Of a stretch of 64,000 nucleotides of DNA, positions 9,001 to 12,000 are shown piece after piece (within the stretch, counting starts at the first letter, position 1; each line of letters begins with the position of its first letter). This DNA is from Escherichia coli (GTDB lineage: Bacteria; Pseudomonadota; Gammaproteobacteria; Enterobacterales; Enterobacteriaceae): the NCBI RefSeq assembly GCF_044324785.1, contig NZ_CP172127.1. One strand, given 5' to 3'. Position numbers: made by a program.

Positions 9001-12000
9001 GTCATGTTACAGGCTGGGATGTTCAGGCGTGCCGTGATGCAGTTCAGCATAACTTTAATGCCTGGGTGAAGGAATTCGGCACGGGCAACAGGGAATTTAA
9101 ACAGATGGTTGAACAGGCTGAGGCGTTTTTGTCGTCGTTCGGGTTCAGTCGATACCTTCCCTATCCAAACAGCGACGAGCGTGATTTACCGATTAAAGAC
9201 CTTGCCGGATACAGAAAGGGGAGTATCAGAAACGAAGATGACGAGTTCCGTTTTTACACGTTCCCGCATGTGTTTGAGGGTGAGATAGCACAGGGATTTA
9301 ATCCGTCTCACTTTGCCCGCGCGTTGAGTGCTGCCGGAATGCTGGAAGCGGGAGGCGACCGCCGTTACAAGAAAAAGGCGCTCGGCAGGATTGGCGGGAA
9401 GCAGCATATTTTTTACGTGCTGATGTTCCAGCCTGAAGCAGAAGATTAACTTCCCTGTGTGAGGTAAAAAGTTGCGGGTTATGCGGGTTATCCTGTGCAT
9501 AAGTTAATTAACTGCATGATTAAAAAGGAAATCAATAACCCGCACGTAACCCGCAAAACGGCAGTTATAACCCGCAAATGTGCGATTGTAACCCGCAAAA
9601 TTTCACTGTAAGAGTGTAAACAAGCGTAACTATCACGTTAAAACCGGAGAACAAACAGCATGACGGCGCAAATATCAGCTTACGGGCGGCTGGTGGCTGA
9701 CCCGCAGTTAAAGACCACCAGCAAGGGCACACAAATGGCGATGGCGAGTATGGCGGTCCCCCTTCCATGCAATCAGGCAGATGACGGAACGGCGACGATG
9801 TGGTTATCCGTCCTGGCGTTTGGCAGACAGGCCGACGCACTGGCAAAACACCACAAAGGCGAACTGGTGAGCGTGGCGGGTAACATGCAGGTAAGCCAGT
9901 GGACAGGCCAGAACGGCGAAACGCGGCAGGGCTGGCAGGTTATCGCAGACAGCGTAATCAGTGCGAGAACGGCGCGACCGGGCGGCAAAAAAGGCCAGCA
10001 AGGGCAGGCTACTGACGCACTGAACAGGGCAAAACAACAGGCGGGTAACGACGATCCGTACGGGGACGGGATACCGTTTTAATTCACAACAGCGAACAGA
10101 GTAATTACAGGGGAAGGCATGACAAAGCTGACCATAAACAGAAAACCGAAGGGCATTTACGGCACGCCGCAGAAAACAGCACAGGCGGCGCAGCAGCAGA
10201 ATAAAACCACATCGGCGCATAAAGTGATGCCAGATAACCAGAACACACAGCAGAAGCTCACAGGAGCAACACCGCGGCGGCGTATGACCAAACAGCAGCG
10301 TAAAAACCGCAGACGCGTTAACCGTCTTATTGAGCTATGGCCTGAATTATTCAGCCCGGAATCACCTAAGCCGCTTAAGGTGGGGATATTTGACGACCTG
10401 ATACAGGATATTGCCGCGAGAGGTATTTCACTCGGACAGGGAACACTACGCGCAACGCTGGCGCGTTATGTGCAGACTCCGCGCTATTACCGCGCCCTGG
10501 TAGCTGGTGGCGCGCGTTACGACCTGAAAGGCCAGCCGTGCGGCGAGGTAACACCACTACAACAGACGCACGCAGGAAAACTACTGGAGGAGATGAATGG
10601 AAATAGTAAGAAATGATCACGCACATGGTCGCCGTGCAGGTGATCACATTGTGGATGAAATGGCGGAAAAACAAAGAGTTGACATTATTGTCAGTGTCAC
10701 AGTCGAGAGCGCGAAGCGCCAAAATAAGCGTATAAATGATCGTTCAGATGTACATGGTGTGATCACTCGTTTACGCCAGACTTTTGTAACTCGTGAAGAG
10801 ATGATTGAAGCTATTGACCAGCATACAGCATGTATCAGCGTCAGGGATATACCAGAGATCATTGCTAACTACTTCATGATCACCAGACGCCTTTACCGGA
10901 GAAAAGACAAGAGCACGGTTAACCGTCTCCTGATGTCTGATATTCGCGAATACCTGCAAGAAAGGGGCTATGTGAATCCACCAGAACAGCACTACGGAAG
11001 AGTCGGAGGCTAACTAAAACCCTGTACCGAAGAGCGGCGGCGCGATGGGGTGAAGTAATGCAGTTGGGGAACTGACAAGGAACGGTATTACATATCAATG
11101 CGACGACTGGAATGTTCCAGGAAGGCACAGAGGCCACCGAAGCAACCGGATAATTTAGAAGACCTGAAACGGTCGCTTAAACGCACTGAAAAAGAAATGG
11201 GGATAGATGGGATCGGGAAATCAGTATGGCGTAACTACCAGAAGTAAGCACAGAGCCGGAGCAATCCGGCTTTTTTTTGGCTGAAATCAATCAATCTATT
11301 TTTGTGATAGAAATATATTTATCTACCACTTTTTTCGATCAATAATGTGCATAATTTAGTCATTAAGAGGAAATTGCTGTGAATTGTATTAACGACCTGA
11401 ACACAGGCGATGTCAGAGGTGGTTCCGTTCATCTGGATGCACAGACCGTGATGCGCCTTAAGCAGTACAGAATCGACCATGTGAACAATCACCCTGATCA
11501 GCCATTACCAGGCGTGGCGCAGATTGTCAGACATGCCGTAAACGCCTGGCTTAATCAGAATGGTTTTGCATCGGGGGGTGAGTAATGAATCGCTGGTACA
11601 GCATCAAAGCAGAGGGACGCCAATGTTATCTAACTCAGGTTTTATGAATTCTGACTCCCGATTCAAAATAGGAGGTTACTAATGCCAGTCGTACCAACAG
11701 TATCCGGACGTCAGGTTGAGAGCCGTGGAGTTCAGTCAGCAGGCTTGCAGACGTTTTCTCAGCCAGGTATTGGTGATGCTTTTGTTCGGGCAGGGGCAGA
11801 GGCAATTGATGTTTTTGGTCAGGCAAAACAGCGTGCCAATATTGCCTTGATTCAGGAGGCATCCCTTAAACTCAGTCAGACAGGCAGTGATCTGCTGAAT
11901 AATCCTGAAACAGGATTGCTTAACCTGAAAGGGAAAAATGCTATTGGAAAAGGCCATGAGTATACACAGCAGTTTGATGCTCAGATCGAACAACTGGCTA

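What the first reader, a model, noticed from the sequence alone, without database searches (positions are those of the whole stretch)
9473..9597. Iteron cluster immediately downstream of the primase/helicase gene (candidate origin)
Six copies of a 9-bp unit are arranged as two tandem direct repeats (TGCGGGTTA x2) and four inverted copies (TAACCCGCA) flanking a 45-bp AT-rich spacer, starting 24 bp after the primase/helicase stop codon. Convergent iterons around an AT-rich unwinding element form a typical origin architecture. In phage P4 the alpha primase binds short repeats at ori and at a second site (crr).
Basis: partly seen in the sequence, partly recalled or inferred. Interest (0 to 1): 0.6.

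Follow-up and report, generated by a model that had tools for sequence, protein, structure and literature searches.

The report
Phage-satellite replication origin, split in two
The repeat cluster is very probably the replication origin of a 19-kb phage-satellite island in E. coli, a known kind of origin; its mirror-image second half lies 10.6 kb away, at the far end of the island.

Summary
Six exact copies of TAACCCGCA (two tandem, four inverted at 11/21/21 bp) flank a 45-bp spacer of 71% A+T, starting 24 bp after the stop codon of a 708-aa gene. The 9-mer occurs 11 times in the window against 0.47 expected.

Both clusters lie inside a 19.1-kb island integrated at tRNA-Gly(CCC).

The 708-aa protein is a relative of the SaPI Rep and SCCmec Cch self-loading helicases, by sequence and by predicted fold. 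The layout matches the published origin of phage-inducible chromosomal islands (PICIs).

Across 73 relatives, the repeat word changes only when the last ~130 residues of the protein change. A natural recombinant swaps exactly window 9123-9622, which is that C-terminal domain plus the repeats. This maps recognition to the C-terminal domain.

In most relatives the two clusters abut as one ~310-bp bipartite origin. Here, and in at least 18 other loci of two specificity classes, genes separate them, and the distal cluster sits beside a conserved cos-like block near attR.

Verdict: a new member of a known origin type. The candidate-origin reading is supported. The P4 ori/crr analogy holds for layout but not for ancestry. 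Replication and binding are untested.

The parts
1544..1562 (+). attL: 19-bp direct repeat TTCCCTTCGCCCGCTCCAA at the 3' end of tRNA-Gly(CCC) (tRNA at 1488-1561)
1687..2940 (+). P4-type tyrosine integrase of the island
   Evidence: NF007246 E=2.5e-98; phrog_1
7323..9449 (+). 708-aa initiator: N-terminal alpha/beta domain (about residues 1-130, called primase in PHROGs), then a DUF927 / Rep-Cch-type helicase body, then the C-terminal domain
   Evidence: 8TCH E=2e-14; pLDDT 91; 5DGK E=3e-23, TM 0.78-0.80; 8TCH TM 0.70
9048..9446 (+). Codons 576-708, the C-terminal domain that co-varies with the repeat word (inferred iteron-recognition domain). The cassette swapped between relatives is 9123-9622.
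9473..9490 (-). Cluster 1, left arm: two tandem iterons (TAACCCGCA on the - strand), 9-bp period
9491..9535 (.). Cluster 1 AT-rich spacer (45 bp, 71% A+T), the presumed melting site. It contains a DnaA-box consensus match, TTATGCACA, at 9494-9502 (- strand).
9536..9597 (+). Cluster 1, right arm: four iterons TAACCCGCA at 9536, 9547, 9568 and 9589 (spacing 11, 21, 21)
20048..20098 (-). Cluster 2, spaced arm: three iterons at 20048, 20069 and 20090 (21-bp spacing), the mirror image of the right arm of cluster 1
   Evidence: inverted repeat I1, 57 nt
20099..20175 (.). Cluster 2 AT-rich spacer (77 bp, 73% A+T; its least stable 45-bp window ranks in the 0.2% least stable of the island)
20176..20201 (+). 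Cluster 2, tandem arm: degenerate TAACCCGG followed by two exact TAACCCGCA (20184, 20193)
   Evidence: I2
20202..20330 (+). Conserved non-coding block that follows cluster 2 in the split-type relatives examined (six aligned; motif hits): TGTTTTGTATATATATACGAAAAATTG, a G-run, then CCGCCCGCCTCGTCAAATTTTTACAC. Possibly a cos/packaging region.
20689..20707 (+). attR: second copy of the 19-bp att repeat. The ETT2 type III secretion genes follow.

Best explanation
Window 9473-9597 is the initiator-proximal part of the vegetative replication origin of a 19.1-kb phage-satellite island of the PICI type, integrated at tRNA-Gly(CCC) in E. coli.

Proposed mechanism:
1. The 708-aa protein encoded just upstream is a Rep/Cch-type self-loading hexameric helicase with an added N-terminal domain.
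2. Its last ~130 residues recognise the 9-bp iteron TAACCCGCA.
3. Protomers bound to the two tandem and four phased iterons on either side of the 45-bp AT-rich spacer melt it, and helicase rings load there, as proposed for SaPI Rep.
4. Host polymerase then copies the element once a helper phage has induced it.

A second cluster with the same iterons in mirror-image layout (20048-20201) belongs to the same device. In most relatives it abuts cluster 1, giving a ~310-bp bipartite origin with two AT-rich spacers. Here it is displaced 10.6 kb to the right end of the island, next to a cos-like block. Its most likely role is a second loading site or a cis-acting partner of cluster 1.

Shown here: the architecture, the homology and fold of the protein, the co-variation of domain and iteron, and the conservation of both clusters. 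Inferred: binding, melting, loading, and any cooperation between the clusters.
For: - Repeats are real and non-random: 11 exact copies against 0.47 expected.
- Cluster 1 starts 24 bp after the stop codon of the initiator gene. The spacers are 71% and 73% A+T and among the least stable DNA of the island.
- The protein matches SaPIbov1 Rep (8TCH, E=2e-14) and Cch (5DGK) by sequence. By predicted fold (pLDDT 91) it matches 5DGK (E=3e-23, TM 0.78-0.80) and 8TCH (TM 0.70) over about 580 columns.
- Published biology of that family: origin immediately 3' of rep, 6-12 iterons, AT-rich centre, opposed iterons on each side, and a C-terminal winged helix that reads the iterons (PMC9371898). Gram-negative PICI origins have the same layout, and the EcCICFT073 pri-ori fragment replicates a plasmid (PMC6092414, PMC11338833).
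- In 80 IMG/VR loci with primases 61-100% identical, the cluster-1 layout is conserved with at most one iteron missing, while the word changes (AACCCGCA, GGGACAAC, AACCCAC, GAACCAAC and others).
- Pairs with the same iteron are 73-100% identical in residues 576-708; pairs with different iterons are 37-63% identical, with no overlap. The N-terminal and middle parts reach 100% identity between iteron classes.
- Window against L003: 88-96% DNA identity over 7723-9122, 25-50% over 9123-9622, and 89-94% again from 9623.
- Cluster 2 carries the same word as cluster 1 in every class. This includes a second split-layout class (L088, TGGGACAAG in both clusters).
- Iteron columns are 85-89% invariant against 32-35% of other columns.
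Against: - No replication, binding or melting data exist for this element or for this primase clade. The experimentally validated EcCICFT073 replicon uses a different primase family.
- Primase activity of the N-terminal domain rests only on a PHROG family name.
- By SaPI criteria cluster 1 alone already looks like a complete origin, so cluster 2 may be redundant, regulatory or packaging-related rather than part of initiation.
- Co-variation shows co-inheritance of the C-terminal domain and the iterons, not physical contact.
- The island is larger than classical PICIs (19 kb) and has no recognisable capsid or terminase genes, so whether it is mobilised at all is unknown.
Confidence: 0.8

Rival explanations
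1. Cluster 1 alone is the origin. Cluster 2 is a negative-control or titration site, with pairing of initiator-bound iteron sets ('handcuffing') limiting copy number, or it is a redundant duplicate origin with no cooperative role.
For: Cluster 1 by itself meets the published SaPI origin description of at least six iterons, an AT-rich centre and opposed iterons (PMC9371898). Cluster 2 can sit anywhere from 0 to 10.9 kb away, which argues against a strict geometric requirement. Handcuffing by extra iterons is established for iteron plasmids (general knowledge).
Against: Cluster 2 has its own AT-rich spacer, the least stable DNA near the island's right end, and the full two-arm layout. That suits a loading site better than a simple titration array. 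It is present in nearly all relatives whose held DNA reaches far enough, and it matches cluster 1 in two split-layout classes.
Confidence: 0.12
2. The repeats are operator sites for transcriptional control of the downstream SSB-ProQ-PerC operon, or autoregulation by the initiator, rather than a site where replication starts.
For: Cluster 1 lies in the 210-bp gap in front of the SSB gene. In relatives with the adjacent layout, cluster 2 and the TATATATA block lie directly before the next gene. Initiators often autoregulate through their iterons (general knowledge).
Against: No sigma-70-like promoter on the + strand was found in 9300-9800. In the window cluster 2 has no downstream gene before attR. 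The SSB module is exchanged independently of the repeats, with breakpoints at 9597 and 9628. Architecture and protein family match a validated origin type.
Confidence: 0.05
3. Clusters 1 and 2 are the inverted ends of a nested 10.7-kb transposable or invertible cassette, with multiple recombinase-binding sites at each end as in Tn7 or Mu.
For: The two clusters are inverted relative to each other (57-nt and 25-nt inverted matches), and each has several phased sites about 21 bp apart.
Against: There is no transposase or invertase between them; the genes there are SSB, ProQ/FinO, a PerC-like gene and three virion-protein-like ORFs. In most relatives the clusters abut with nothing between them. 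The repeat word tracks the helicase C-terminal domain. The genes between the clusters keep the same orientation in all three annotated split loci (L001, L002, L088), and the clusters keep the same relative orientation in every split locus.
Confidence: 0.02

Closest known systems
Replication origins of Gram-negative PICIs (EcCICFT073 pri-rep-ori; Fillol-Salom et al. 2018, PMC6092414; reused as 'Primase-Ori' in PMC11338833)
   Same: Same kind of island: int, Icd-like, DUF4222, primase, SSB and PerC genes in one direction. The origin lies directly 3' of the initiator gene, with two iteron sets around an AT-rich region. The EcCICFT073 intergenic region also has tandem iteron pairs at both extremes in inverted orientation. 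The prototype capsid-forming PICI type of O157:H7 carries the same primase family and the same TAACCCGCA iterons.
   Different: The EcCICFT073 primase belongs to another family (584 aa, 'DNA primase family protein') and its iteron is TCTACC. In the window the second half of the origin is 10.6 kb away instead of adjacent. No experiment exists for this clade.
SaPI Rep / SCCmec Cch self-loading helicases and the SaPI ori (PMC9371898; PDB 8TCH, 5DGK)
   Same: The helicase body and C-terminal region are homologous. The origin lies directly after the gene, with 6-12 short iterons, an AT-rich centre and opposed iterons. The C-terminal domain determines specificity, which matches the co-variation found here.
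   Different: Iterons are 9 bp here, against 5-6 bp in SaPIs. There is an extra ~145-residue N-terminal domain. A second mirror-image cluster exists, adjacent or displaced, which I did not find described for SaPIs. The host is Gram-negative.
Satellite phage P4: alpha protein with ori and crr (GenBank NC_001609 annotation)
   Same: Two separate clusters of one short repeat. One (crr) lies directly 3' of the primase-helicase gene and the other is 4.7 kb away. Each crr unit has two tandem repeats 9 bp apart, an AT-rich stretch and inverted copies. Both elements are integrase-bearing satellites.
   Different: No detectable sequence similarity between the 708-aa protein and alpha (BLASTP E=0.12). 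The two P4 crr units are direct, not inverted, repeats. In P4 the distal cluster is the annotated start site and both are required in cis (literature knowledge); here neither has been tested.
Iteron plasmids with distant initiator sites (R6K gamma/alpha/beta origins and pi-mediated looping; handcuffing in P1, F, RK2). General knowledge, not tested here.
   Same: One initiator binds iteron sets kilobases apart, and distance and orientation are flexible.
   Different: The initiators there are winged-helix Rep proteins that recruit the host DnaB helicase. Here the initiator is itself the helicase.

Membership tests
PICI/SaPI-type replication origin | Lies immediately 3' of the rep (pri-rep) gene | tested here: met
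   First iteron at +24 after the stop codon at 9449. Same position in all 80 related loci.
PICI/SaPI-type replication origin | Two sets of short iterons in opposite orientation flanking an AT-rich region, six or more iterons in all | tested here: met
   2 + 4 exact iterons around a 45-bp spacer of 71% A+T.
PICI/SaPI-type replication origin | The initiator is a Rep/Cch-type (MCM-like AAA+) self-loading helicase | tested here: met
   8TCH E=2e-14 and 5DGK E=9e-4 by sequence. By fold: 5DGK E=3e-23, TM 0.78-0.80; 8TCH TM 0.70. Pfam DUF927.
PICI/SaPI-type replication origin | Iteron specificity resides in the initiator's C-terminal domain | tested here: met
   By co-variation only. Residues 576-708 separate iteron classes completely (at least 73% against at most 63% identity). 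The other domains do not. The swapped cassette is 9123-9622.
PICI/SaPI-type replication origin | Initiator plus ori drive autonomous replication | not testable with these tools
   Shown only for EcCICFT073 and SaPIs in the literature (PMC6092414, PMC11338833).
Phage-inducible chromosomal island (Gram-negative lineage) | Integrase and att repeats, rightward one-way gene order, int-alpA region, pri-rep module, size about 10-18 kb, packaging or interference genes, helper-phage induction | tested here: inconclusive
   Met: 19-bp att repeats, integrase, int-alpA RNA, Icd-like/DUF4222/primase/SSB/PerC order as in EcCICFT073 and cf-PICIs. Not met or unknown: length 19.1 kb, no capsid or terminase genes, three virion-protein-like ORFs instead. 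Induction is not testable.
P4 ori/crr system | Initiator homologous to P4 alpha | tested here: not met
   BLASTP E=0.12, no significant alignment.
P4 ori/crr system | Two separated clusters of the same repeat, one directly 3' of the initiator gene | tested here: met
   Clusters at 9473-9597 and 20048-20201. P4 annotation for comparison.
P4 ori/crr system | Both clusters required in cis for replication and bound by the initiator | not testable with these tools
   Needs replication assays and binding assays.
Transposon or invertible segment with multi-site inverted ends | A recombinase gene inside, and ends that always flank a payload | tested here: not met
   No transposase or invertase among the ORFs between the clusters. 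The clusters abut in most relatives.
DnaA-dependent iteron oriV of plasmids | DnaA boxes next to the iterons | tested here: inconclusive
   One consensus match at 9494-9502. It is conserved at the same place in 27 loci of the TAACCCGCA class, with variation only at the free position. It is absent from the other iteron classes.

The most novel reading that the evidence does not exclude
The origin of this satellite family is a two-part device read by one C-terminal domain. Its halves work together even when split by up to 11 kb of genes, for example by initiator-mediated looping, as in P4 ori/crr or R6K. This would have evolved independently in the MCM-like Rep family. The displaced half would be physically coupled to the cos-like packaging signal at the island's right end, so that replication start and packaging start are linked.
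Probability: 0.3. Interest if true: 0.55.

Novelty: new member of a known kind. Interest (0 to 1): 0.4.

Why it matters
- It fixes the origin and its specificity determinant for a very common family of E. coli satellite islands. Related sequence was found in 1,663 of 5,426 complete genomes.
- The comparison yields a ready-made table of matched C-terminal-domain and iteron cassettes: five main words plus close variants. These could serve as orthogonal conditional replicons of the kind already exploited with the CFT073 primase-ori pair (PMC11338833).
- The displaced second half, always beside a cos-like block, gives a simple natural system to ask whether a self-loading helicase origin needs or uses a distant partner site.

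Tried and rejected
- P4 alpha homology: none detected.
- Lambda cosN near cluster 2: no match within 3 mismatches. The cos reading of the post-cluster block rests only on its paralogue upstream of terS in cf-PICIs.
- Promoter and terminator scans at both clusters: nothing above shuffled expectation at cluster 1.
- Rfam: no RNA family at either cluster.
- NCBIfam, PADLOC and Pfam on the cargo ORFs: no hits.
- Nested transposon or invertible segment: rejected.
- Tandem second island as the source of cluster 2: rejected. There are only two att copies, no primase remnant upstream of cluster 2, and cluster 2 has the mirror layout rather than the cluster-1 layout.
- Literature searches for a split or second PICI origin found nothing. 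The P4 crr search returned no relevant open-access paper. Figure 2a of PMC6092414 could not be viewed, so the adjacent bipartite layout may already be drawn there.

Full report
**1. The observation**

The sequence is as described. TGCGGGTTA occurs twice in tandem at 9473-9490. A 45-bp spacer follows (9491-9535). TAACCCGCA then occurs at 9536, 9547, 9568 and 9589. The upstream ORF 7323-9449 stops 23 nt before the first repeat.

The exact 9-mer occurs 11 times in the window against 0.47 expected, and no shuffle of 100 reached 11. The spacer is 71% A+T in an island that is 51% A+T. It falls among the 3% least stable 45-bp windows of the island.

The four right-arm repeats are spaced 11, 21 and 21 bp. 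They therefore lie on about the same face of the helix (my arithmetic).

**2.

The other five exact copies form a second cluster:
- three copies in the opposite orientation at 20048, 20069 and 20090 (21-bp spacing);
- a 77-bp spacer of 73% A+T, whose least stable 45-bp window ranks in the 0.2% least stable of the island;
- tandem copies at 20184 and 20193, preceded by a degenerate TAACCCGG.

It is the reverse-complement layout of cluster 1 (inverted matches of 57 and 25 nt).

**3. Context**

A 19-bp direct repeat marks the 3' end of tRNA-Gly(CCC) (1544-1562) and recurs at 20689-20707. It bounds a 19.1-kb island. ETT2-type type III secretion genes follow the island.

The island encodes:
- a P4-type integrase and an int-alpA RNA;
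- Ant/BRO-like proteins, an Icd-like peptide and a DUF4222 protein;
- the 708-aa protein, then SSB, a ProQ/FinO protein and a PerC-like gene;
- three large ORFs resembling phage virion proteins.

The same gene order occurs in EcCICFT073 and in capsid-forming PICIs. Related DNA was found in 1,663 of 5,426 complete E. coli genomes.

**4. The protein**

- Pfam finds only DUF927.
- Against PDB sequences it matches SaPIbov1 Rep (8TCH, E=2e-14) and SCCmec Cch (5DGK).
- An AlphaFold model built on 79 homologues has mean pLDDT 91.
- Foldseek aligns about 580 columns of the model to Cch (E=3e-23, TM 0.78-0.80) and to SaPIbov1 Rep (TM 0.70).
- Residues 1-130 form a separate alpha/beta domain. PHROGs call it primase; this was not tested.
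- P4 alpha is not detectably related.

**5. Comparison with published origins**

SaPI Reps are self-loading helicases whose C-terminal winged helix reads the iterons. The SaPI ori lies directly after rep. It has 6-12 iterons, an AT-rich centre and opposed iterons on each side. Two hexamers are thought to load there (PMC9371898).

[quoted passage not shown] The EcCICFT073 pri-ori fragment drives plasmid replication (PMC6092414). It is used as a conditional replicon (PMC11338833). Cluster 1 fits this description in every sequence-level respect.

**6. Comparative test**

Eighty IMG/VR loci encode primases 61-100% identical to the window's. With at most one iteron missing, they keep the layout of two tandem inverted repeats, a spacer, and four direct repeats at 11/21/21 bp. 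The word differs: AACCCGCA, GGGACAAC, AACCCAC, GAACCAAC and a few variants.

In 73 full-length proteins:
- pairs with the same word are 73-100% identical in residues 576-708;
- pairs with different words are 37-63% identical there, with no overlap;
- residues 1-150 and 151-575 reach 100% identity between word classes.

L003 is 88-96% identical to the window in DNA over 7723-9122. Identity falls to 25-50% over 9123-9622 and returns to 89-94% from 9623. The exchanged cassette is therefore the C-terminal domain plus the repeats, and it contains no other coding sequence.

Graded similarity fits too. The class with AACCCAC, one base different, has the closest C-terminal domain (54-63% identity; 68% for its representative).

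Within the TAACCCGCA class, iteron columns are far more conserved than their surroundings.

**7. The second cluster in relatives**

- In every other word class, and in 12 loci of the TAACCCGCA class, cluster 2 abuts cluster 1. It lies about +187 to +335 after the stop codon, giving a ~310-bp bipartite origin with two AT-rich spacers.
- EcCICFT073's validated intergenic region also carries inverted tandem pairs at both extremes.
- In the window, L001, L002 and 14 IMG/VR loci, cluster 2 lies 7.7-10.9 kb downstream, behind SSB and the cargo, within a few hundred bp of attR. One further locus is cut by its contig end.
- Loci showing cluster 1 alone mostly hold too little downstream DNA to reach the expected position.
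- The split layout also occurs in a second specificity class. In L088 both clusters carry TGGGACAAG and lie 2.2 kb apart. This distal cluster is present in 75 genomes.
- L003 has the adjacent pair plus such a distal cluster.
- In every case examined the distal cluster is followed by the same conserved block.

**8. Mechanism and its limits**

- Shown: the architecture, the protein family, co-variation of domain and iteron, and purifying conservation of both clusters.
- Inferred: the C-terminal domain binds the iterons, the spacer melts, helicase rings load, and the element replicates after induction.
- Open: the role of cluster 2. It could be a second loading site, a cis partner as in P4 crr/ori or R6K (general knowledge), or a copy-number brake.

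**9. Verdict**

The finding is real and correctly read as an origin. It belongs to a known origin type. The displaced mirror-image half and the mapped specificity cassette are the points worth following up.

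Noticed in passing
window 11682-19029: Three large co-oriented ORFs (843, 686 and 925 aa) between the two iteron clusters. They match PHROG families named head protein / transglycosylase-type (phrog_992, E=5e-291), unknown (phrog_1145) and virion structural protein (phrog_684, E=1e-294). They have no Pfam, NCBIfam or PADLOC hit. They look like a trio of phage internal-virion or ejection proteins carried by a satellite that lacks capsid and terminase genes.
   Followed up: partly
window 20202-20330: A conserved non-coding block directly after cluster 2: TGTTTTGTATATATATACGAAAAATTG, a G-run, then CCGCCCGCCTCGTCAAATTTTTACAC. 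The latter part has a paralogue just upstream of terS in capsid-forming PICIs, and cf-PICIs with the split origin carry two copies. It is possibly an HK97-type cos region. Lambda cosN itself is not present.
   Followed up: partly
window 9494-9502 (- strand): A DnaA-box consensus match, TTATGCACA, inside the cluster-1 spacer. It is kept at the same position in 27 loci of the TAACCCGCA class, with variation only at the free position (G/A/C). Six loci have the perfect TTATCCACA. It is absent in the other iteron classes.
   Followed up: partly
L003 23380-23500: This tRNA-Pro island has a third iteron cluster near attR (spaced CTTGTCCCA copies, with one variant, plus three tandem GGGAC-core copies), besides its adjacent pair with GGGACAACA. 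It looks like a recombinant that kept the right-end module of an L088-like ancestor.
   Followed up: yes
window 2985-3052: Rfam int-alpA sRNA match (46.9 bits, gathering score 35.8) between the integrase gene and the next ORF.
   Followed up: no
window 3881-4004: Short tandem repeats upstream of the Ant/BRO-like genes: a 33-bp unit twice (3939-4004) and a 17-nt unit twice, 22 bp apart (3881-3919). Possibly regulator-binding sites.
   Followed up: no
window 7323-7770 (residues 1-150 of the 708-aa protein): The N-terminal domain is exchanged independently of the rest. It is only 33-65% identical between proteins whose helicase bodies are 94-97% identical. It is a second recombination module of unknown specificity.
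   Followed up: partly
window 19790-19860; L003 23150-23230: A ~70-bp stretch upstream of the distal cluster is conserved between unrelated islands and contains a terminator-like hairpin (19830-19853). The portable right-end module may start here. The island also encodes a ProQ/FinO-family RNA-binding protein.
   Followed up: no
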